Position numbers and translations under genes: made by a program
NCBI GenBank assembly: GCA_018713605.1
Contig: DVOM01000017.1
Location: 119 to 64,118, forward strand
Direction: 5' to 3'
DNA: 64,000 nt
From: Candidatus Scatocola faecigallinarum
GTDB taxonomy: Bacteria; Pseudomonadota; Alphaproteobacteria; RF32; CAG-239
In this document: positions 34,913 through 42,206 of the stretch, piece by piece
How positions within the stretch are numbered: position 1 is the stretch's first letter
How the letters are laid out: the number at the start of each line of letters is the position of its first letter
The notes under the pieces: model-generated
What the model was told of the DNA's origin: nothing
The model's database searches: none
The model's input: only the letters and a program-made list of their open reading frames with translations

Positions 34913-35557
34913 GTGATAAAAATCTATGAAGCAGAAATGAAACTAGATTTGATTAGTTTTCTTTTGAAAGAACAGCCAAGAACTTTCATTATTGGGTCTG
35001 AAGTTCCTGTCAATCAATCCGAAAATCTAGTAGATATATTAAAAATATCAAAAAGAGCATGTCACGCTTATGAAATAAAAAGTGACCAAGATAACTTTAT
35101 CCGTCTTCCAAAACAAATAGAAACATATACAAGCCTGTTTGATTATACAAGTGTTGTTGTATCAAAAGCTAATTATCATAAAATAATAAAAGAGATTCCT
35201 AAAAAAATAGGGATTCTTGTTATTGATGAAAATCATGTTGTAACGATTAAAAGAAAAGCCACAAAAATTCTCAGATTAAACAAAATGGGCTTGACTAAGC
35301 TTTTGTGGAAAAATGAATTAATCAATATTCTTCAGGATAAGCAAATAGGTACAAAAAAAGAACTTAATAAATTAAGCGATGTTACTTTACGCCAAATCCT
35401 AGTTAGCATATTAACTACAAAAGAACTCAAAAATTTATCATATAAACATTTACTTACGAGATATGTGTATAAATATAAAAATTTTATGGGTAATATAGGA
35501 TTGGAATTACTGAAAGACGATTTATTAGAGCTAAGTTTGAAAAACCAATCTATCTAA
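34913..35557 (+). CDS. sce7726-family PD-(D/E)XK-like protein
   Basis: SE...VD...AYEIKSDQDNFIRLPKQ..Y...FDY..VV; IGI. Confidence 0.75.
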   Translation: MIKIYEAEMKLDLISFLLKEQPRTFIIGSEVPVNQSENLVDILKISKRACHAYEIKSDQDNFIRLPKQIETYTSLFDYTSVVVSKANYHKIIKEIPKKIGILVIDENHVVTIKRKATKILRLNKMGLTKLLWKNELINILQDKQIGTKKELNKLSDVTLRQILVSILTTKELKNLSYKHLLTRYVYKYKNFMGNIGLELLKDDLLELSLKNQSI

Positions 35558-36608
35558 AACGTTTCAATACATTATTTATATACAAATTAACTCTAACAGA
35601 AATCCAATGACTAGGTATTCTTTTGCTTGGTGTTCCTCTAGCTGCTTTTACTATTTCCTGAACACCCCATAAATCATTTTCTAAGTGATTTTGATGTATA
35701 AATTCTATTGCATTTGCAGCCGCTTTTTCATAGCCTCCATCGTCCCTTCTATATCTAAAGAAATTATATATATTGTTGTATGGAATATCAATTCTAGGCA
35801 CCCAAGAACCACCAAAAGAAGCATAGGCAATAGGGTGAATGCTAGCATAATCTCCATAAGATATGTTTTCAATTTTAGATTTTAAGCCTTTGTACAATTC
35901 AAATTCTCTAATTGGAAAACTTCCTCGGCAACCATCAGAATAAATTGTAACGCTTTGGGGAAAACTTGAAGATAAAATAATACATCTGTTTTGCTCAATC
36001 TGCTTATTTTTAATAAAATCTGAAATAAGATTTTTACTGTTTTCTAATATTGTTTCAAGTGAGATTTTGGGATTTAAATAACCAAAGTCAAATAAAAAAA
36101 TAAATTTTTTTAAACGTTTTATATCAACATTTATCAGTGAATTTATTAGATGAATCATCTTTTCATTAAAAATCATACTATCTGATGTAAAGGGAATCCG
36201 AAAAGCAACGTTGTTAAAATTTTCTAACAGGTTGTTTATTTGCAAATTTAAATCTTTATCATCAGGTTTATTTAACAAAACAACACAAGGAATAATATTT
36301 GAATTTTTATCTTTTACTTTTAAACAAAAATCACACCAATTCTTAAATCCATTTGTTTTATTTTTAAATAATTCAATTTGTTTATTGGTATATTCTTTAT
36401 CTGTTGTAAAATCTACGATAAAAGGTTTTCCTTTCATTACATTTAAAACCTTATCTATGTTCTTTTCTATAAGCCCTATACGATCTTTAACTGTTGTGCG
36501 TGACTTGGTAATTTCAATAACTGGCAAGCTATTCTCTAAATCAGTATTTGATAAGGAGACTAATTCAGCTTCTCTTGTGCGTAATAGAGGATAATATAAA
36601 TTTTCCAT
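35550..36608 (-). CDS. beta-family / sce7725-like protein
   Basis: YYPLLRTREAEL, PVIE, SSSFP, YGDYASIHP, PRID, W..VRVN.YI; convergent overlap with sce7726. Confidence 0.72.
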   Translation of the reverse strand: MENLYYPLLRTREAELVSLSNTDLENSLPVIEITKSRTTVKDRIGLIEKNIDKVLNVMKGKPFIVDFTTDKEYTNKQIELFKNKTNGFKNWCDFCLKVKDKNSNIIPCVVLLNKPDDKDLNLQINNLLENFNNVAFRIPFTSDSMIFNEKMIHLINSLINVDIKRLKKFIFLFDFGYLNPKISLETILENSKNLISDFIKNKQIEQNRCIILSSSFPQSVTIYSDGCRGSFPIREFELYKGLKSKIENISYGDYASIHPIAYASFGGSWVPRIDIPYNNIYNFFRYRRDDGGYEKAAANAIEFIHQNHLENDLWGVQEIVKAARGTPSKRIPSHWISVRVNLYINNVLKRFR

Positions 36609-36613
36609 TGCGT

Positions 36614-37117
36614 TTACCTAATTAAATTTAATTTTTTTGCCCTAAATTCACACGCAACACCCGAAACATTAAATTCTTCAGCAAGTCCCAATATTGTGTT
36701 GTTTCCTTTTTTTATTTCATCAAAGAAAGCTTTTTCTGGCATTAATATTCTCGCAGCCAAGTCATTCGCTTGTGCTTCTTCTTTATTTGTATCTGGACTT
36801 CTAAAAAATGAAACATCTTTAAATGCGGCGTTTTCTTTAGCATGTAAAACATAGTGAGCAATCTCGTGGGCAATTGTAAAACGTTTTCTTTTTTCGTTGT
36901 GAAAAGCATTCACATAAATATACCATTTCCCCCCCATATTTTCTAATTTACCTGATAATTCTTTATCCATATGAACATCTTCAATTATTGTTATTCCAAG
37001 CTTATTAGCTACTTGCCTAACATCAATAGGGTGGCTATAGCCTTCCAAAATGTCATTTAATTCGGCAAGACTAATTTTACTTTCCAATAATGGTTCTTCT
37101 ATACTTATAAAGGCCAT
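36614..37117 (-). CDS. ImmA/IrrE family metallopeptidase
   Basis: SG.L, IYVN, RKRFTIAHEIAH, E.QAN..AA.ILMP, LAE.FNVS. Confidence 0.9.
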   Translation of the reverse strand: MAFISIEEPLLESKISLAELNDILEGYSHPIDVRQVANKLGITIIEDVHMDKELSGKLENMGGKWYIYVNAFHNEKRKRFTIAHEIAHYVLHAKENAAFKDVSFFRSPDTNKEEAQANDLAARILMPEKAFFDEIKKGNNTILGLAEEFNVSGVACEFRAKKLNLIR

Positions 37118-37119
37118 AA

Positions 37120-37710
37120 TTACTTTTCCACTGTTAAAGTAACATTTTCAACTTTGTCAAAACAATCCTCATTAAGCAATCCGTCATCACTTTTAATAAT
37201 ATTTCCTTTTAATATCTCTAATTCTTCTTTAATTACACTAAATTTTTCTTGAATTTCATCGTCTATTATACGATCAAGATCGCTTCTTTTTTCTTCAAAC
37301 TTTTCAAGTATAAGTTTTGTAGCTTTCTCCTCTGTCAAAACTTTAATACTATTATAAGCAACTACAGAAAGAATCACAAATGCAAAAGATAAATATGCAA
37401 TTATATTATTATAAAAACTGAGAAGATCATTTGTCTGTATATTTTTATAGTTAATAGGTTGAACAGCCATAACATCTCTCAAAGAAAGATTACATAAAAG
37501 AGTCGTTATAAAAACGATTCCAACAAAGATTACACAATAAGTTATCTTTTTTATAGGAGAATAAATATCAGAATTTTTATGATTATACAAGTGCCAAACT
37601 AAAACGATGATTACACAACACATAGTCCAAACCATTATGTCAATTGACATAATCCATTCTAGAAAGTACCTTATATGTTCTAATTCCTTTTCTTTCACAT
37701 TAAGCTCCAT
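37120..37710 (-). CDS. hypothetical membrane protein (3 TM + charged tail)
   Basis: 196-aa ORF ending 2 bp before immA. Confidence 0.65.
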   Translation of the reverse strand: MELNVKEKELEHIRYFLEWIMSIDIMVWTMCCVIIVLVWHLYNHKNSDIYSPIKKITYCVIFVGIVFITTLLCNLSLRDVMAVQPINYKNIQTNDLLSFYNNIIAYLSFAFVILSVVAYNSIKVLTEEKATKLILEKFEEKRSDLDRIIDDEIQEKFSVIKEELEILKGNIIKSDDGLLNEDCFDKVENVTLTVEK

Positions 37711-37926
37711 AAAATAATTATATATTTTATAGTTTAACCATAGCTAAATTAGGATACAAGCAAATAATAATTATTATACAACACCAAAAAACTTGTTGCC
37801 ATCTATGTCATTAGGTTAATTTAGCTTATTTTACCTCATCAAATTTAGGTGTAAAACATACAATATATTGATTTTTAGAAAAAAGTTAATAAAATGCCAT
37901 TATAAATAAACAAGCAAAAATTGGCT

Positions 37927-37958
37927 TTTTAATTATGGCAGATCTGCCATAATTAAAA
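37927..37958. promoter_or_regulatory. 32-bp perfect palindrome, putative operator
   Basis: TTTTAATTATGGCAGA|TCTGCCATAATTAAAA, ending 26 bp before the KilA-N start. Confidence 0.75.
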
Positions 37959-37984
37959 TTATAACATATTGAAAGGGATAAATA

Positions 37985-38860
37985 ATGTTATTTTTTGGTA
38001 AAAATAAAAAGATTCAAGTTCAAGATACAGATGTATCAATAAAAACCAAAGATGGACAAGATTATATCTCTTTAACAGATATGTTAAAATCCAAAGATGG
38101 TGATTTTTTTGTTTCAGATTGGTTAAGAAATAGAAATACTGTTGAATTTTTGGGTGTTTGGGAAAGCATGAACAATCCAAATTTTAATTATGGCGGATTC
38201 GCCGCAATTAAAGAAAAGGCCGGATTAAATAATTATAAGATTAGTGTAAAAGAATGGATTGAGAAAACGAATGCTATCGGATTAATAGCCAGTAGCGGCA
38301 GATATGGCGGAACGTATGCCCATGTAGATATTGCTTTTGAATTTGGTATGTGGATCAGTCCGCAATTCAAGTTATATTTAATTAAAGAATATCAGCGCCT
38401 TAAACAAGTTGAAAGCAATCAATATAATCTAGAATGGAATGTTAAACGTATGATTAGTAAAACCAACTATAATATTCATACGGATGCGATAAAAGAAATT
38501 ATTATTCCTCAAACAACACATTGGATGAAAAGCTTTGAATATGCAAAAGAGGCAGATTTACTTAATTTAGCTATATTTGGAATGACGGCAAAGGAATGGA
38601 AAGAGCAAAATCCAGAAAGAGATAAAAGAGGTGAAAATATGCGTGATTCTGCAAGTATTGTGGAATTAATCGTTATTTCTAATGCTGAGAGTTTAAATGC
38701 TGAAATGATTAAAGAGGGAAAATCTAAAAAAGAAAGATTTGAAAAAATTCAGCAAATGGCTAAAGATCAAATGAAAATTTTAGCTAAAAATGATTCCTTA
38801 AAATCTTTAAAAAAGACAAAAGAAGATATCTATCTAACAGCTATGGAAACTAAAGATTAA
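37985..38860 (+). CDS. KilA-N domain DNA-binding protein
   Basis: DYISLTDM, WLRNRNT.EFLG.WE, GRYGGTYAH.DIAFEF..WISP.F.LYLIKEYQRLK. Confidence 0.9.
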   Translation: MLFFGKNKKIQVQDTDVSIKTKDGQDYISLTDMLKSKDGDFFVSDWLRNRNTVEFLGVWESMNNPNFNYGGFAAIKEKAGLNNYKISVKEWIEKTNAIGLIASSGRYGGTYAHVDIAFEFGMWISPQFKLYLIKEYQRLKQVESNQYNLEWNVKRMISKTNYNIHTDAIKEIIIPQTTHWMKSFEYAKEADLLNLAIFGMTAKEWKEQNPERDKRGENMRDSASIVELIVISNAESLNAEMIKEGKSKKERFEKIQQMAKDQMKILAKNDSLKSLKKTKEDIYLTAMETKD

Positions 38861-38893
38861 AAAAGTAAACATATTGTCTTTAATGTCATTACG

Positions 38894-39490
38894 TTACAAC
38901 ATTCTCTCAATAAACCGTCTCAATATGCTGCGTTGGACACCGAGGATTTTGGCAATTTGGGATTTGGAGATGCCTTTGGCGAGTAAATTTCGCACTCTTC
39001 TAGCATTTTTTGAGAGTTTGAGCTTTTTTGATTCTGCGGAAAAGGGACGTCCGAGCTTTTTTCCTGAAGCCTTAAGATTGGCAAGGGATGATTTTGTACG
39101 TTGGGATATTAGGTTTCTCTCTATCTCTGCAGCCAATCCAAAAGCGAACGCTAAGACTTTACTTTGTATGTCATTGCCGAGACGATAGTTTTCTTTCAAA
39201 GTCCAGACCTGACAATTTTTTGATAAGCAGGTTTCCAAAATTCTCATAACTTCAAGCAACGAACGCCCGAGACGGGATATTTCGCAAGAGATAAGGATGT
39301 CATTTTCCTGCAAATTCTCTAATAATTCACCAAGTTTGCGGTTTTTCAGCGCTTTTCGGGAAGATATTTTTTCCTCTACCCAATCGTCAACGGTCAATTC
39401 GTGCTTTCTTGCATATTCTTCAATCTCAAAGCGTTGATGTGTATAGGTTTGTTTGTCTGTGCTAACCCGAATGTAACCAATTACAGCCAT
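38894..39490 (-). CDS. small serine recombinase, Mpi-like DNA invertase/resolvase
   Basis: GYIRVSTDKQ, EISRLGRS, AEIERNLISQRTK, LGRP, C-terminal HTH. Confidence 0.92.
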   Translation of the reverse strand: MAVIGYIRVSTDKQTYTHQRFEIEEYARKHELTVDDWVEEKISSRKALKNRKLGELLENLQENDILISCEISRLGRSLLEVMRILETCLSKNCQVWTLKENYRLGNDIQSKVLAFAFGLAAEIERNLISQRTKSSLANLKASGKKLGRPFSAESKKLKLSKNARRVRNLLAKGISKSQIAKILGVQRSILRRFIERML

Positions 39491-39743
39491 TGTTTTCTCC
39501 TTAAAATTTCTTAAAAATACCGGTTATTTTATTAGAACGATAAAATCAACCGCTTTTTGCAAGTTTCGCACTTTTTCTTTTCAATAAAAAATCAAGAAAA
39601 AATAATGGCTTGTTTTCTTTTGACTCGGGATGCATCTGTCTTTTAGACAACCGGTCACAATCGTTGGTTCGTGTATAGTGAAACAGTCTAGCTTGGCTAG
39701 ATTACAAACTTTAATTGCAATTAAAGATAAGGAATTGAAACTT

Positions 39744-42206
39744 ATGAAGAAAAAACTTTTATTTACAACGGCTTTAGTGGCTCTGGTCTGCACTTCTAAT
39801 GTCTACGCAGCAGATTTGAGTATACAAGCTGGTGATAATATTTTTAACCCTGCAACAGGACAACCAGATGGACAGACAACGTATAATTATGACTCAATCA
39901 GTATGACAGGGGGCAAACTTACCTTAGAAGATTTTAAAATAAGAAGTAATAGCGATGCCTCCATTACTGGCGGTGAAATTAATATTTCTGGCGATGGCGG
40001 TCTTAGAGCCCATAATGGAAACTTAAATATCAGCGGTGGAACGATTAATGCTTCAGCAACCGAAATCCATGGCGGAATAACTAATGTTTCTGGTAATGCA
40101 ATAATCAATGTCAATGATTATGCCGAATTTGCTGGGGATTCCGAGCTGAATATGTCTGGAGGACAACTAAATTTATCAAAGGGAATTACGATTGTTTCGT
40201 TGCCAGATCAACAGACTGGAGGAGATGCTTTATTCAATATGACCGGCGGTGAAATTAATATGAGCCAGTCTTATTTAGGGAGTTCAAGAATTGAGGGAAC
40301 TTCCATAACTGAAAGGCAAGCTGGGACCAGTAAGCTTTTGGGTGGTACGATTAATGTCAAGGATGGTAAAAATATTTTCCTAATGGATAATCCAGAAGTT
40401 AATAACACAATAAATATAAATGAAGGAGCTGAGCTAGGTGTTTATGATCACTATATAGATGCACGGACAGGGAAAATTGAAGATATAAATTTTGCTGGTA
40501 AAAGCACTCTTAACCTGAGTGAAAAGGCGGAAATAAATATATCCGGTAAACTTGTTTCTGACGTTTCCGGCAACGGTAACTTAAATGTAAAATCTTCAAG
40601 CGCGTTGATTGACGGTAACGTTTCCGGCTCCAACCTGACTTTTGAAGCAGACCATTCTTTAAGCAAGGCATTTTCCGGCACAATCGGCGATTTGGCTTCT
40701 CTGAATGTCAACAAAGGCACTTTGACTTATGACAAACAGACCGGTAAAATCGGCAATCTGAATGTCACCGGTGGTTTGGATATTGGCACAAATACCGTAA
40801 ATGCCACGAATGTTGATTTCAAAGATAATTCCAGCCTGGCCTTGCGCGTGGCTGCTACTGACAACTACGGCAAAATCAATGCCGATAATATCACAATCGG
40901 TAAAGATACGACCATGAAAGTAACGCTTGATAATGGTGTTGTTGGTAATGGCGAAAATACGGATTTGAAGTTTTTGAACGGTAAAGTAACCGGAAGTTTC
41001 ACGAATAAAATTGCCGAAAACAGCCGGTATGACATCAAATGGAATGAAGACGGTTCCTTAAATATTACCGGAACAGCGACGGCTTCTGATGTTGTTACGG
41101 ATGCCGGAGGTACGACTTCAAATGCTGCAACGGCCGAAGCTTGGGATACGTTGGTACAATCAACAACGGCAAGCGCCAATGCCAAAGCGGTTGCTTCGGT
41201 CTTGAATGATTTGTCGCAAGAAACTTCTGCTGCAGGTAAAAAAGCTTATGTCGATGCTTTGACAGCCGTAGCGCCGGAAGTTGCGCCGATGGTTCAGAAA
41301 ACTCAGACTAAAACGGCCAATCAGGTATTCGGCGCAGTCAGCACTCGCTTGACCGGCGGTTCAATCTCGACTGGTTCTGAGGGTATGTCATCAGGTGATT
41401 CTAATCCTGACGCTGCTGTCTGGGTTCAGGGACTGTTCAACAAATCAAAATTGGACGATACTTCTAAAGCCAAAGGTTTTGATGCAGACAGTTCCGGTAT
41501 TGCTTTCGGTGCCGAAAAGTTTGTAAACGATGATGTCAAAGTCGGTGTCGGTTATGCTTACACAAACACCGATATTGACGGTTTTATGCGTTCAACCGAT
41601 GTTGATACACATACCGCGATTGTTTACAGTGAGTACAAACCGTCTAACTGGTATGTAAACGGTATCGCGACATACGGTTGGTCTGATTATTCCGAAGATA
41701 AAAACGTTAATGGAATTGGTGTAAAAGCTGACTACGATGTTGAAACATTCGGTTTGCAGGCTATGACCGGTTATGATATGCAAGTCAAAGGCTTTGGTTT
41801 AACACCGGAAGTCGGTTTGCGTTATGTTCACATCAAACAAGACGCTTATAAAGATTCTGCCGACCAAAAAGTTTCTGGTAATGACAGCGATATTTTGACC
41901 GGTGTCATCGGTGCCAAGGTCAGCAAGAACTTTGAGCTGTCTAACGGCATGAACATCAAACCGGAAGCCCGTGTTGCCGCAACTTATGACTTGTTTAACG
42001 ATGATGTTAATTCGGTCGTAACTTTGACTAACGGTTCAGCTTATGCCGTTGAGGGCGAGGCTCTTGACCGTTTCGGTATGGAATTTGGTGCCGGCGTAAC
42101 TGCTGAGCTTAACTCTCAGGTTGAGCTGTCTCTTGGTTATGAAGGAAAGTTCCGTGAGGATTACCAAGACCATACCGGCTTGTTGAATGCTAAATATAAA
42201 TTTTAG
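39744..42206 (+). CDS. autotransporter (type V) outer-membrane protein
   Basis: Signal peptide MKKKLLFTTAL; GG-rich beta-helix passenger; C-terminal beta-barrel ending in YKF. Confidence 0.92.
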   Translation: MKKKLLFTTALVALVCTSNVYAADLSIQAGDNIFNPATGQPDGQTTYNYDSISMTGGKLTLEDFKIRSNSDASITGGEINISGDGGLRAHNGNLNISGGTINASATEIHGGITNVSGNAIINVNDYAEFAGDSELNMSGGQLNLSKGITIVSLPDQQTGGDALFNMTGGEINMSQSYLGSSRIEGTSITERQAGTSKLLGGTINVKDGKNIFLMDNPEVNNTININEGAELGVYDHYIDARTGKIEDINFAGKSTLNLSEKAEINISGKLVSDVSGNGNLNVKSSSALIDGNVSGSNLTFEADHSLSKAFSGTIGDLASLNVNKGTLTYDKQTGKIGNLNVTGGLDIGTNTVNATNVDFKDNSSLALRVAATDNYGKINADNITIGKDTTMKVTLDNGVVGNGENTDLKFLNGKVTGSFTNKIAENSRYDIKWNEDGSLNITGTATASDVVTDAGGTTSNAATAEAWDTLVQSTTASANAKAVASVLNDLSQETSAAGKKAYVDALTAVAPEVAPMVQKTQTKTANQVFGAVSTRLTGGSISTGSEGMSSGDSNPDAAVWVQGLFNKSKLDDTSKAKGFDADSSGIAFGAEKFVNDDVKVGVGYAYTNTDIDGFMRSTDVDTHTAIVYSEYKPSNWYVNGIATYGWSDYSEDKNVNGIGVKADYDVETFGLQAMTGYDMQVKGFGLTPEVGLRYVHIKQDAYKDSADQKVSGNDSDILTGVIGAKVSKNFELSNGMNIKPEARVAATYDLFNDDVNSVVTLTNGSAYAVEGEALDRFGMEFGAGVTAELNSQVELSLGYEGKFREDYQDHTGLLNAKYKF

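What the first reader, a model, noticed from the sequence alone, without database searches (positions are those of the whole stretch)
37927..38213. KilA-N gene carries a copy of its upstream palindromic operator inside the coding sequence of its DNA-binding domain
Seen: a loop-less 32-bp perfect palindrome TTTTAATTATGGCAGATCTGCCATAATTAAAA (37927-37958) lies just upstream of the KilA-N start. A 26/32-identical near-palindrome TTTTAATTATGGCGGATTCGCCGCAATTAAAG (38182-38213) lies within the ORF and encodes FNYGGFAAIK, between the WLRN and GRYGGTYAH motifs of the KilA-N domain. A 10-bp half-site GCCATAATTA also spans the immA start (37113-37122), possibly by chance. Established: KilA-N is a DNA-binding domain of mobile elements. 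From memory (unverified), this segment is variable in the family while staying palindromic at DNA level. Inference: the same DNA is both binding site and code for part of the binding protein, so site and protein change together. This could be self-referential autoregulation (looping between the two sites), or the palindrome could be a recombination or diversification target. It may also control the divergent membrane-protein/immA/beta operon.
Basis: partly seen in the sequence, partly recalled or inferred. Interest (0 to 1): 0.8.

Follow-up and report, generated by a model that had tools for sequence, protein, structure and literature searches.

The report
Conserved DNA palindrome inside KilA-N gene
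A DNA-binding-protein gene in a gut bacterium carries a 32-letter DNA palindrome inside its coding sequence and a second, perfect copy just upstream; related genes in many bacterial groups keep the internal one almost letter for letter, so the DNA itself has a job that is still unknown.

Summary
A perfect 32-bp palindrome lies at 37927-37958, with a 26/32 copy at 38182-38213 inside the KilA-N gene. These are the only two such sites in the 1.68-Mb genome.

The internal copy is a family-wide DNA element. In 80 homologues of 56-71% protein identity from many phyla, codons 66-76 are frozen at synonymous sites. Top-codon share there is 0.80-1.00 (ten of eleven codons at 0.97 or more), against 0.19-0.80 for invariant residues nearby. 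28 of 80 are perfect 32-bp palindromes. Divergent alleles keep the symmetry through coordinated amino-acid changes: 9 of 14 pairs covary, matched by 0 of 500 shuffles.

The upstream site is a gene-less copy. The same variant (AGATCT centre) also stands gene-less in an unrelated organism, and gene-less copies occur in phages without any KilA-N gene.

Most likely the palindrome is the binding site of the dimeric KilA-N protein itself, here doubled into the leader. This is inferred, not shown. The scan has noted this palindrome before on other DNA. I found no paper describing it.

The parts
37927..37958 (.). Gene-less, perfect 32-bp palindrome (13-bp arms TTTTAATTATGGC / GCCATAATTAAAA, centre AGATCT). 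It lies 26 bp before the KilA-N start codon, between the predicted promoter and the ribosome-binding site.
   Evidence: (I4). The arms are identical to the family consensus; all 4 differences lie symmetrically in the centre. As single-stranded DNA it folds at -12 kcal/mol, z -5.2. The flanks are not coding and show no KilA-N remnant. The same variant stands gene-less in 3 metagenome contigs of another organism.
38182..38213 (+). Native intragenic copy of the family palindrome. It runs from the 3rd base of codon 66 to the 1st base of codon 77 (FNYGGFAAIK). Here it is decayed: 4 mismatches to the family consensus and 12 of 16 pairs.
   Evidence: The homologous segment is frozen at synonymous sites in the homologues. 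The window copy is more diverged than 78 of 80 homologues. It folds at -7.7 kcal/mol, z -1.9.
37985..38860 (+). KilA-N gene of 291 aa, PADLOC candidate family PDC-S22. It has an N-terminal KilA-N/APSES-type winged-helix domain, a long helix at residues 126-176 and a C-terminal helical domain.
   Evidence: Pfam PF04383, 3.7e-22. PADLOC PDC-S22, 4.5e-122. PHROG 2657 'transcriptional regulator', 8.5e-62. AlphaFold2 model, pLDDT 79.9. MBP1 DNA-binding domain 1bm8_A, Z 6.2, rmsd 3.4, 84 residues aligned, model residues 3-138. It is the single copy in the genome.
37868..37895 (+). Promoter-like site (TTGATT, 16 nt, TAAAAT). It would place the upstream palindrome in the transcribed leader. This is a weak prediction.
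   Evidence: 9 of 12 consensus matches. The region has 6 such sites, against 8.0 +/- 3.0 in shuffles, so the prediction carries little weight.
37972..37978 (+). Ribosome-binding-site-like AAAGGGA, 6 nt before the ATG at 37985 and 13 nt after the palindrome.
   Evidence: Read from the sequence.
37113..37122 (+). Isolated 10-bp half-site GCCATAATTA across the immA start. It is probably chance and not counted as part of the element.
   Evidence: one extra copy, against 0.16 expected per window.

Best explanation
Both sites are copies of one element: a subfamily-specific DNA palindrome built into KilA-N genes at the codons for the turn and helix that follow helix A of the winged-helix DNA-binding domain.

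Shown: the palindrome is selected as DNA. Synonymous sites are frozen across phyla, and symmetry is kept through coordinated amino-acid changes.

Inferred: it is the cognate binding site of the KilA-N protein, which is predicted to form a two-fold symmetric dimer. Each 13-bp arm would be one half-site and the central 4-6 bp a spacer that is not read. A site carried inside the coding sequence travels with this promiscuously transferred single gene wherever it lands. That would give it a self-recognition or self-repression site that does not depend on context.

In this window the native internal site has decayed by 4 positions. A second, perfect, gene-less copy sits between the predicted promoter and the ribosome-binding site, where it would act as an ordinary operator for the same protein, alone or together with the internal site 255 bp away.

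Inferred origin of the upstream copy: recombination or breakage at the palindrome, as seen in stubs and relics elsewhere. Its perfect symmetry would then be kept by selection or by hairpin-templated correction.
For: (1) DNA-level selection. In 79 aligned homologues (L061 was dropped because no start codon was found), the top codon has a share of 0.80-1.00 at residues 66-76: 0.97-1.00 at ten of the eleven, and 0.80 at F72, whose third base lies in the centre. Invariant residues nearby have 0.19-0.80. Third-position entropy over codons 67-76 is 0.17 bit, against a gene mean of 1.46 (sd of windows 0.27), although the coding sequences range from 31% to 57% G+C.

(2) Among 80 homologues, 28 have 16 of 16 pairs, 27 have 15, 17 have 14, 7 have 13 and 1 has 12. 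Random synonymous codons give 16 of 16 with P = 1.8e-5.

(3) Covariation. Alleles with other arms (Staphylococcus phage EW, the L083 stub, Mannheimia phage gp37, L038, L078) keep 12-14 of 16 pairs through paired amino-acid changes. On 85 sequences (50 distinct), 9 of 14 pairs change on both sides; the shuffle mean is 2.6 and 0 of 500 shuffles reach 9. 94.9% of cells are paired, against 35-53% when the partner is slid.

(4) Two unrelated KilA-N subfamilies in another genome carry perfect 28-bp and 22-bp palindromes at the same place, directly after helix A.

(5) The centre tolerates change. TTC to TTT occurs in 20% of coding copies. Gene-less copies carry the centres GAAATC, GATTTC, AAATTT, GAAGTC and AGATCT.

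(6) Wobble-compatible synonymous changes that an RNA stem would allow are absent: GGC in 77 of 77 and GCC in 74 of 74.

(7) Structure. The palindrome encodes loop 64-68 and helix 69-78, and the domain matches the MBP1 DNA-binding domain. In the PCG2-DNA complex, helix B lies in the major groove and the GxG wing in the minor groove (PMC4333399, abstract and passages). The variable residues 69, 70, 73 and 74 fall on one helix face, while the wing GRYGGT is unchanged between alleles.

(8) Homodimer prediction. The score is 0.64 and the best of 3 controls is 0.11. The mark was reached by 20 of 30 proteins solved as pairs of one chain and by 1 of 23 solved as single chains. The runs agree in at least 72% of contacts and the partner's pLDDT is at least 67. 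The interface uses residues 51-62 and 114-146, which leaves helix 69-78 and the wing free.

(9) Position. The upstream copy lies after a promoter-like site and 13 nt before the ribosome-binding site.
Against: - No binding data of any kind exist for this family.
- The promoter prediction is weak: the region has no more promoter-like sites than shuffles.
- Gene-less copies occur in phage records with no KilA-N gene. PF04383 was found in 1 of 5 records searched, and the two records that are 99% and 100% complete have none. The palindrome can therefore persist without a KilA-N gene in cis.
- The window's intact gene tolerates a decayed internal site, so that site is not indispensable.
- 255 bp equals 24.3 helical turns, which does not favour looping.
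- Not every KilA-N gene has a palindrome at this place: the distant one in L129 has none of 7 or more pairs there.
- Stubs and relics that end at the palindrome fit a recombination role just as well.
- If specificity differs between alleles, the reading residues would have to be those encoded by the site itself, which is an unusual requirement.
Confidence: 0.4

Rival explanations
1. The upstream copy is a recombination scar with no present function. The palindrome is a fragile or recombinogenic hairpin-forming site where KilA-N cassettes are cut, displaced or overwritten. On this reading the upstream copy is all that remains of an earlier allele.
For: - L083 carries a row of a short relic, an 84-aa N-terminal stub of another allele that ends 8 codons after the palindrome segment, the full gene, and a decaying copy 35 nt after its stop.
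- Mannheimia phage gp37 is a 76-aa stub that ends 3 codons after its palindrome.
- 3 of 5 same-phylum hits match only residues 5-110, 6-98 and 30-92 of the protein, yet keep the palindrome.
- In L119-L121 the AGATCT copy abuts the stop codon of a YhcG/DUF1016 gene.
- The central 4 nt is found in both orientations between phage contigs whose 150-bp flanks are 100% identical, in two flank types. This shows that the arms recombine or template-switch.
Against: - The upstream copy is perfect (16 of 16 pairs), while no trace of flanking KilA-N coding sequence remains. tblastn with 60 N-terminal queries finds only the palindrome peptide.
- A neutral scar should decay like the copy downstream of L083, which keeps 11 of 16 pairs on my reading of the sequence printed.
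- The identical 31-36-nt variant is kept in an unrelated organism.
- Hairpin-templated self-correction could explain perfection without function, so this rival is not excluded.
Confidence: 0.2
2. The palindrome is an aba-like immunity or decoy DNA. It does not regulate transcription. Instead it switches off the KilA-N protein's activity against DNA that carries it (self-marking), and gene-less copies in phages act as decoys against host PDC-S22 proteins.
For: [quoted passage not shown]
- The gene here belongs to a phage-defence candidate family (PDC-S22) and lies in a defence-type neighbourhood.
- 22 of 36 exact-arm sites in viral contigs lie outside any KilA-N match. 15 of those 22 sit about 90-150 bp upstream of genes of two SocA_Panacea-type families (one member of each family was confirmed by Pfam).
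- 4 of 5 such phage records searched have no KilA-N gene.
Against: - aba has another architecture. It is 63 bp, spans -29 to +34 of the start codon, and has terminal CCCGCC direct repeats rather than a palindrome.
- No defence activity has been reported for PDC-S22. The preprint calls all 145 PDC systems untested (passages; its tables could not be opened).
- The gene here is chromosomal with no prophage seen around it, so self-immunity during induction is not needed.
- The hosts of the phages that carry the palindrome are unknown.
Confidence: 0.15
3. The element works as an mRNA hairpin. A 14-bp stem with a 4-nt loop in the coding region, and here also in the 5' leader, tunes translation or mRNA decay of a potentially toxic protein.
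For: - The covariation keeps pairing.
- The G-U-compatible change TTC to TTT at pair 16/21 is the commonest variant, with GU in 14 of 50 distinct rows.
- The upstream copy would lie in the leader if the predicted promoter is real.
Against: - Other G-U-compatible synonymous changes never occur: GGT in 0 of 77 and GCT in 0 of 74.
- The commonest arm variant, ATA to ACA, breaks a pair.
- The element is kept in gene-less, intergenic form in phages in either orientation relative to neighbouring genes.
- No Rfam family matches.
- The hairpin does not cover the ribosome-binding site.
Confidence: 0.07
4. The two palindromes are crossover sites of the adjacent Mpi-family serine invertase (38894-39490, minus strand). 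The enzyme would flip or delete the 255-bp segment holding the gene's start, as a phase-variation switch.
For: - The neighbour is an Mpi-family invertase (NF009949, 272.4 bits against a cut-off of 272).
- The two sites are 85% complementary over 33 nt (I1).
- Earlier notes on this genome report Mpi-type flippable promoters elsewhere (not checked here).
Against: - No serine recombinase lies in any of the 80 homologue loci or the 38 palindrome-bearing viral and metagenome loci.
- The palindrome is conserved where no second site exists.
- No inversion or deletion joint between the sites appeared in the contigs of 4 runs. Those contigs break at the palindrome, so they are uninformative.
- The sites do not resemble the Mpi repeat as I recall it (recalled, not checked).
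Confidence: 0.04

Closest known systems
BstA abortive-infection proteins and their aba element (Owen et al. 2021, PMC8585504; passages read)
   Same: A KilA-N-domain protein is paired with a short, allele-specific DNA element located in its own locus. The element acts as DNA and can work from another replicon. Both belong to phage-defence settings.
   Different: aba is 63 bp, straddles the start codon (-29 to +34) and depends on terminal CCCGCC direct repeats. The element here is a 28-32-bp palindrome at codons 66-77 of the DNA-binding domain, conserved across phyla, and here also duplicated upstream. In PADLOC the protein matches PDC-S22 and nothing else at E <= 0.001. No function has been shown for the palindrome.
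PADLOC phage-defence candidate PDC-S22 (Payne et al. preprint 10.1101/2024.01.29.577857; passages read)
   Same: The protein matches the PDC-S22 model over nearly its full length (4.5e-122, residues 6-280 on model positions 3-278 of 281).
   Different: The candidates were defined by being embedded in BREX, DISARM or type I R-M loci. Here the gene stands alone with its own upstream region. The neighbours of the 80 homologues are very diverse: 110 Pfam families among 128 neighbour ORFs. No palindrome is described.
Classical autorepressor/operator pairs, and genes that contain their product's binding sites (for example lambda O with ori-lambda inside it; recalled, not checked in a paper here)
   Same: A dyad-symmetric site lies close to or inside the gene of a dimeric DNA-binding protein. 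The upstream copy lies where an operator would.
   Different: The conserved site is inside the coding sequence of the DNA-binding domain itself, and homologues have no upstream operator. Binding is not shown.
APSES/MBP1-type winged helix-turn-helix domains (PCG2-DNA complex, PMC4333399; abstract and passages)
   Same: The fold of the N-terminal domain is shared (1bm8_A Z 6.2; Bqt4 5yc2_A Z 5.4). Both have a glycine-rich wing (GRYGGT here) and a helix after helix A that lies in the major groove in PCG2.
   Different: This protein has an insertion of about 20 residues between that helix and the wing. The equivalence of helix 69-78 with helix B therefore rests on order and on the shared WLRN motif, not on a residue-level superposition. 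The fungal proteins are not known to me to carry palindromes in their genes.
Mpi-type invertible promoters of Bacteroides fragilis (recalled; named by NCBIfam NF009949)
   Same: An Mpi-family serine invertase lies next to a pair of inverted-repeat sites.
   Different: The sites are each palindromic and one lies inside a coding sequence. The association is absent from all other loci examined, and no flipped form was seen (uninformative).

Membership tests
Pfam KilA-N (PF04383) | Profile match above the gathering score | tested here: met
   78.6 bits against a cut-off of 23.8, E 3.7e-22, residues 10-140.
Pfam KilA-N (PF04383) | APSES/KilA-N-type fold of the N-terminal domain | tested here: met
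   AlphaFold2 model with pLDDT 79.9. MBP1 DNA-binding domain 1bm8_A Z 6.2, rmsd 3.4, 84 aligned. Bqt4 5yc2_A Z 5.4. These Z values are middling.
PADLOC PDC-S22 | Full-length match to the PDC-S22 model | tested here: met
   E 4.5e-122, 404.5 bits, residues 6-280 on model positions 3-278 of 281.
PADLOC PDC-S22 | Embedded within a BREX, DISARM or type I R-M locus (how the candidates were found) | tested here: not met
   In the window the neighbours are a divergent membrane-protein/ImmA/Beta_protein operon and a convergent invertase gene. Embedding is how the family was discovered and is not required of each member.
PADLOC PDC-S22 | Anti-phage activity | not testable with these tools
   The preprint calls the 145 PDC systems untested.
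BstA-aba system | N-terminal KilA-N domain in the protein | tested here: met
   BstA is described as having a KilA-N-like domain at residues 32-147.
BstA-aba system | Sequence membership in the BstA protein family | tested here: inconclusive
   PADLOC returned only PDC-S22 at E <= 0.001. I did not verify that the library holds a BstA model and made no direct comparison with a BstA sequence.
BstA-aba system | aba architecture: about 63 bp across the start codon with terminal direct repeats | tested here: not met
   The element here is a palindrome at codons 66-77, with a copy at -58 to -27 of the start. No terminal direct repeats are present.
BstA-aba system | The DNA element suppresses the cognate protein | not testable with these tools
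   This needs a phage or plasmid assay.
Autorepressor with operator | Dyad-symmetric site between promoter and start codon | tested here: inconclusive
   The perfect palindrome lies 31 nt after a promoter-like -10 box and 13 nt before the ribosome-binding site. Promoter-like sites are no more frequent here than in shuffles.
Autorepressor with operator | The protein is a symmetric dimer | tested here: met
   This is a prediction only. The homodimer score is 0.64 and the best of 3 controls is 0.11. The mark was reached by 20 of 30 proteins solved as pairs of one chain and by 1 of 23 solved as single chains. Contacts agree in at least 72% of cases and pLDDT is at least 67.
Autorepressor with operator | The protein binds the site and represses | not testable with these tools
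   No DNA-protein modelling or assay was available.
Serine-invertase inverton (Mpi type) | Invertase gene adjacent to a pair of inverted repeats | tested here: met
   NF009949, 272.4 bits against 272. The repeats are 85% complementary over 33 nt.
Serine-invertase inverton (Mpi type) | Both orientations present in sequencing data | tested here: inconclusive
   Only assembled contigs were available. They break at the palindrome, and no inversion joint was listed.
Serine-invertase inverton (Mpi type) | The repeats go together with the recombinase in related loci | tested here: not met
   0 of 80 homologue loci and 0 of 38 other palindrome-bearing loci encode a serine recombinase.
Described structured RNA (Rfam 15) | Covariance-model match | tested here: not met
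   0 matches at E <= 1 in 37700-38900 on either strand.

The most novel reading that the evidence does not exclude
KilA-N proteins read their own gene. The exposed face of the recognition helix (residues 69, 70, 73, 74) is encoded by the inner arms of the very palindrome that the dimer binds. Each allele is then a matched protein-site pair carried on 32 bp, and a change of allele changes reader and site together. The site marks DNA as 'self' for a defence-type protein. Phages have captured gene-less copies as DNA decoys, placed in front of their Panacea-type genes. The upstream copy in this window would be a second self-mark or operator of the same kind.
Probability: 0.15. Interest if true: 0.9.

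Novelty: new variant of a known kind. Interest (0 to 1): 0.68.

Why it matters
A 32-bp stretch held almost letter for letter inside a protein-coding gene, across phyla whose homologues range from 31% to 57% G+C, is a rare and clear case of a second, non-protein code written through codons. The gene belongs to an untested phage-defence candidate family that moves widely between genomes. The only studied KilA-N defence protein, BstA, is controlled by a cognate DNA element in its own locus. If the palindrome is the cognate site of the protein, it would explain how a promoter-less travelling gene brings its own control or self-recognition with it. It would also explain why phages without any KilA-N gene keep exact copies, possibly as DNA decoys, and why KilA-N genes are so often found as stubs broken at this point. 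All of this can be tested with short oligonucleotides, synonymous recoding and plaque assays.

Tried and rejected
- Rfam: no match at E <= 1.
- Sequencing runs: 16 runs were listed, all as assembled contigs. Four were laid (X1, X3, X4, X6). Contigs end or begin at 37929-37956, that is at the perfect palindrome, as expected of k-mer assemblies. No inversion or deletion joint between the two sites is listed, so inversion is neither shown nor excluded. The depth rise at 38164-38267 (284-374 in X1, X4 and X6 against about 3-33 beside it; weaker in X3, 18 against about 6) comes from other organisms' KilA-N genes.
- Structure searches: Foldseek against PDB gave no match at E <= 0.001. The sequence profile against PDB gave nothing below E 0.8. 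The DdrC match (Z 8.8, rmsd 9.8) is too loose to use.
- Relatives: the gene was not found in 60 related genomes. KilA-N was found in only 2 of 151 genomes of the class. No close relative was therefore available to date the upstream copy.
- Remnant of an N-terminal coding region upstream of the palindrome: none. Only the palindrome peptide matches, in both orientations.
- Half-site at immA: compatible with chance.
- Inverted repeats near the invertase and autotransporter genes (39380-40000): none.
- Phage collection search with 37711-38300: only 5 weak records. Two were followed up.
- Literature: 'KilA-N' plus 'palindrome' gave 0 papers. 'PDC-S22' gave 2 papers, 1 listed (a Streptococcus suis genomics preprint); neither was opened. 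'KilA-N', 'synonymous', 'inverted repeat' listed nothing relevant.
- Supplementary tables of the PADLOC preprint, which may describe PDC-S22, could not be opened.
Full report
**1. The observation.**
Window 37927-37958 is a loop-less, perfect 32-bp palindrome, TTTTAATTATGGC AGATCT GCCATAATTAAAA (pair I4). It lies 26 bp before the ATG (37985) of a 291-codon ORF. A 26/32 copy, TTTTAATTATGGCGGATTCGCCGCAATTAAAG, lies at 38182-38213 inside that ORF and encodes FNYGGFAAIK.

The arm pattern with a free centre, allowing up to 3 mismatches, finds only these two sites in the window, against 0.00 in 100 shuffles. It finds only these two in the whole 1.68-Mb genome, and the reversed control finds none.

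The internal copy forms 12 of 16 base pairs. Enumerating all synonymous codings of its peptide gives P(12 or more) = 0.004, or 0.0015 with the gene's codon usage. The extra half-site at the immA start is real but compatible with chance, with 0.16 expected per window.

**2. The gene and its surroundings.**
- The ORF is a KilA-N protein (PF04383, 78.6 bits).
- It matches the PADLOC candidate family PDC-S22 over its full length (4.5e-122) and PHROG 2657.
- It is the only copy in the genome.
- It was not found in 60 related genomes, and KilA-N was found in 2 of 151 genomes of the class.

Upstream and divergent lies an operon of a membrane protein, an ImmA/IrrE-type peptidase and a Beta_protein, beside an sce7726-family gene on the opposite strand. 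These give PADLOC hits to capP, PD-Lambda-2_B/C, beta and cll. Downstream and convergent lies an Mpi-family serine invertase gene (NF009949, 272.4 bits against a cut-off of 272).

**3. The internal palindrome is a family-wide DNA element.**
A scan of one genome per species found 581 relatives among 600 candidate stretches. The best 80 were kept. They share 56-71% protein identity with the window protein and come from Bacteroidota, Patescibacteria, Proteobacteria, spirochaetes, Verrucomicrobiota, Planctomycetota and others.

In these 80, the segment homologous to 38182-38213 is nearly invariant as DNA. The consensus TTTTAATTATGGCGAATTCGCCATAATTAAAA is itself a perfect 32-bp palindrome encoding FNYGEFAIIK. 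Mismatches to this consensus are distributed as follows:

| Mismatches | 0 | 1 | 2 | 3 | 7 | 10 |
|---|---|---|---|---|---|---|
| Homologues | 28 | 26 | 17 | 7 | 1 | 1 |

In a codon alignment of 79 homologues (L061 was dropped because no start codon was found), the commonest codon has a share of 0.80-1.00 at residues 66-76. Ten of the eleven are at 0.97-1.00; F72, whose third base lies in the centre, is at 0.80. This includes the rare isoleucine codon ATA. Invariant residues on either side (W, L, R, N, T, G) use their codons freely, with shares of 0.19-0.80.

Third-position entropy over codons 67-76 is 0.17 bit, against a gene-wide mean of 1.46 (sd of 10-codon windows 0.27). No other part of the gene comes close, and the coding sequences range from 31% to 57% G+C. 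Even where residue 66 varies (N, D, A, G, H, L and others), its third base is almost always T. With random synonymous codons the consensus peptide would be a perfect palindrome with P = 1.8e-5.

**4. Symmetry is selected, not only sequence.**
More distant alleles have different arms but stay palindromic, through coordinated amino-acid changes on both arms:

| Allele | Segment | Peptide | Pairs of 16 |
|---|---|---|---|
| Staphylococcus phage EW | TTTTAACCGTGTCGAATTCGAGGCGGTTAAAA | FNRVEFEAVK | 14 |
| L083 stub | ...TGGCAT..ATGCC... | FNGIEFDAFK | 14 |
| Mannheimia phage gp37 | ...TTTGGTG..CACCAAA... | FNLVELHQIK | 14 |
| L038 | not shown | FNWNEFVPIR | 13 |
| L078 | not shown | FNWNEFDLIR | 12 |

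On 85 sequences (50 distinct), 9 of 14 pairs show changes on both sides. The shuffle mean is 2.6 and 0 of 500 shuffles reach 9. 94.9% of cells pair, against 35-53% when partners are slid by 1-3 columns.

In another genome of the class, two unrelated KilA-N subfamilies carry perfect palindromes of 28 bp (TTCCGTGGTCGGAATTCCGACCACGGAA) and 22 bp (CGATGCGCAAATTTGCGCATCG). Both lie directly after helix A, at the same place in the domain. The anchors are the shared WLRN motif and the distance to the G-T wing.

The rule is not universal. A distant phage KilA-N gene (L129) has no palindrome of 7 or more pairs there.

**5. What the palindrome encodes.**
The AlphaFold2 model (pLDDT 79.9) has:
- three strands;
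- helix 50-63;
- loop 64-68;
- helix 69-78;
- an inserted helix 88-95;
- a hairpin 100-113 carrying GRYGGT;
- a 50-residue helix 126-176 and a helical C-terminal domain.

The N-terminal domain aligns with the MBP1 DNA-binding domain (1bm8_A Z 6.2, rmsd 3.4, 84 residues) and with Bqt4 (Z 5.4). In the PCG2-DNA complex, helix B sits in the major groove and the GxG wing in the minor groove (PMC4333399, abstract and passages).

By order of elements, the palindrome encodes the A-B turn and helix B. This is an inference, because the insertion of about 20 residues prevents a residue-level statement.

Between alleles the wing is unchanged. The residues that vary (69, 70, 73, 74) fall on one face of the helix, and they are the ones encoded by the covarying inner arms.

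A homodimer prediction passes. The score is 0.64 and the best of 3 controls is 0.11. The mark was reached by 20 of 30 proteins solved as pairs of one chain and by 1 of 23 solved as single chains. The runs agree in at least 72% of contacts and pLDDT is at least 67. The symmetric interface uses residues 51-62 and 114-146, which leaves helix 69-78 and the wing free.

**6. The upstream copy is not a family feature.**
None of the 80 homologue loci has a second copy upstream, scanning up to 1500 bp and allowing up to 5 mismatches in the 22 arm positions. One locus (L083) has a decaying second copy just after its stop codon.

In 401 genomes of the phylum, 6 have the pattern. G000 is the only one with two sites. 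The other five sites all lie in KilA-N-homologous sequence.

The window's internal copy, with 4 mismatches, is more diverged than 78 of 80 homologues. The upstream copy has consensus arms, and its 4 differences are symmetric in the centre: GAATTC becomes AGATCT. Its flanks are non-coding and hold no trace of a KilA-N N-terminus.

Two other studies' metagenomes hold the same upstream region without a difference: X3 over 37545-37956 and X6 over 37679-37956.

**7. Gene-less copies elsewhere.**
The exact AGATCT variant occurs in 3 metagenome contigs. There it directly follows the stop codon of a YhcG/DUF1016 nuclease gene. That organism shares nothing else with this genome at the DNA level; only 31-36 nt match.

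In viral contigs, exact arms occur at 36 sites in 35 contigs. 14 lie in PDC-S22-like genes. 22 have no KilA-N match at E <= 1e-5. A few of the 22 (L088, L116, L117) keep KilA-N-like codons beside the palindrome and look like relics; this is my reading.

15 of the 22 are intergenic and lie about 90-150 bp upstream of genes of two different SocA_Panacea-type families. 12 precede one family and 3 the other. One member of each family was confirmed by Pfam, and the rest were assigned by their shared N-terminal sequence.

Of 5 such phage records searched whole, 4 have no KilA-N gene, including two that are 99% and 100% complete.

In these phages the central 4 nt occurs in both orientations (GAAATC and GATTTC) between contigs whose 150-bp flanks are 100% identical, and this is seen in two flank types. 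The arms therefore recombine or template-switch in nature.

**8. Breakpoints at the palindrome.**
- L083 holds a short relic, an 84-aa stub of another allele that ends 8 codons after its palindrome segment, the intact gene, and a decaying copy after the stop.
- Mannheimia phage gp37 is a 76-aa stub that ends 3 codons after its palindrome.
- Three of the five same-phylum hits cover only residues 5-110, 6-98 or 30-92 of the protein.

The gene travels as a single cassette. Among 74 upstream neighbours, 61 are on the same strand, and 26 of those 61 are within 50 bp. The 128 neighbour ORFs of 120 aa or more, out of 147 neighbours found, fall into 110 Pfam families.

**9. Interpretation.**
What is shown is a DNA-level, symmetric, allele-specific element at a fixed place in KilA-N genes, together with a class of gene-less copies.

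The most economical mechanism is that the symmetric KilA-N dimer binds it, with the arms as half-sites and the centre as a spacer. Carrying the site inside the gene gives a promiscuous cassette its own control or self-mark. In this window a second, perfect copy in the leader would act as an operator, perhaps taking over from the decayed internal site. I put this at 0.4.

The rivals are:
- a functionless recombination scar (0.2);
- an aba-like immunity or decoy DNA (0.15; BstA-aba, PMC8585504);
- an mRNA hairpin (0.07; weakened by the absence of wobble-compatible synonymous changes);
- crossover sites of the neighbouring invertase (0.04; no association elsewhere; the reads were uninformative).

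Origin and function are separate questions. The upstream copy may have arisen as a scar and still be used.

**10. Novelty.**
Earlier notes of this scan describe the KilA-N palindrome on other DNA. I tested several of their points independently here. My literature searches found no paper that describes it.

The nearest studied system, BstA-aba, shares the logic but not the architecture. I therefore class the finding as a new variant of a known kind. The locus-specific upstream duplicate is the only part peculiar to this window.

Noticed in passing
window 34913-37710: A defence-type cluster lies divergent from the KilA-N gene. It comprises an sce7726-family gene (34913-35557, +) and, on the minus strand, Beta_protein (35550-36608), an ImmA/IrrE peptidase (36614-37117) and a 196-aa membrane protein (37120-37710). 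PADLOC hits are beta 3.1e-58, capP 2.9e-28, PD-Lambda-2_B/C and cll.
   Followed up: partly
window 38894-39490 (-) and 39630-42206 (+): An Mpi-family 'master DNA invertase' gene sits just at the NCBIfam cut-off (272.4 against 272). It lies next to an 858-aa ORF whose translation looks like an autotransporter with a signal peptide; that label is my reading, as no family search was run on it. No inverted repeats were found in 39380-40000. Earlier notes report flippable promoters elsewhere in this genome.
   Followed up: partly
L084, L093 versus L087, L112; L092, L098, L110 versus L106: In gene-less palindromes of related phage contigs, the central 4 nt is found in both orientations (GATTTC and GAAATC). 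The 150-bp flanks are 100% identical on both sides in L084, L093 and L112; in L087 the left flank is 100% and the right flank 72% identical, ungapped. This flip-flop of the hairpin loop is seen in two flank types.
   Followed up: partly
L083 1271-2690: A row of KilA-N remains in one locus: a short relic of the palindrome segment, an 84-aa N-terminal stub of a different allele, the intact gene, and a decaying palindrome copy 35 nt after its stop.
   Followed up: partly
L133 767-997 (Mannheimia phage vB_MhS_1152AP2 gp37): An annotated 76-aa protein is an N-terminal KilA-N stub that ends 3 codons after a 30-nt palindrome with different inner arms.
   Followed up: partly
L122, L124-L127 (genome G064): Five places in one genome give identical KilA-N domain matches (86.4 bits). 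Four are open frames of 284 aa and one (L122) is only 149 aa. Each carries the same perfect 28-bp palindrome, which suggests a repeated mobile unit. A sixth, different KilA-N gene (L128) has its own 22-bp palindrome.
   Followed up: partly
L132 342-1677 (Staphylococcus phage EW): A PDC-S22-like KilA-N gene (ORF014) lies between a Peptidase_M78 (ImmA-like) gene and the integrase gene. The window also has an ImmA-type gene close to its KilA-N gene.
   Followed up: no
window 38164-38267 in runs X1, X4, X6: Summed contig depth rises about ten-fold in the bin that holds the internal palindrome. The likely cause is contigs of many other organisms' KilA-N genes matching this conserved stretch.
   Followed up: no
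window 37896-37907: GCCATTATAAAT, directly after the predicted -10 box, resembles the right arm GCCATAATTAAA at 9 of 12 positions. In this AT-rich spacer that may be chance (read).
   Followed up: no
L135, L136, L138: Three of five same-phylum genomes with the palindrome hold only fragments of the KilA-N gene (residues 30-92, 6-98 and 5-110), two of them with a 15-16-pair palindrome. L138 may be cut by a contig end.
   Followed up: partly
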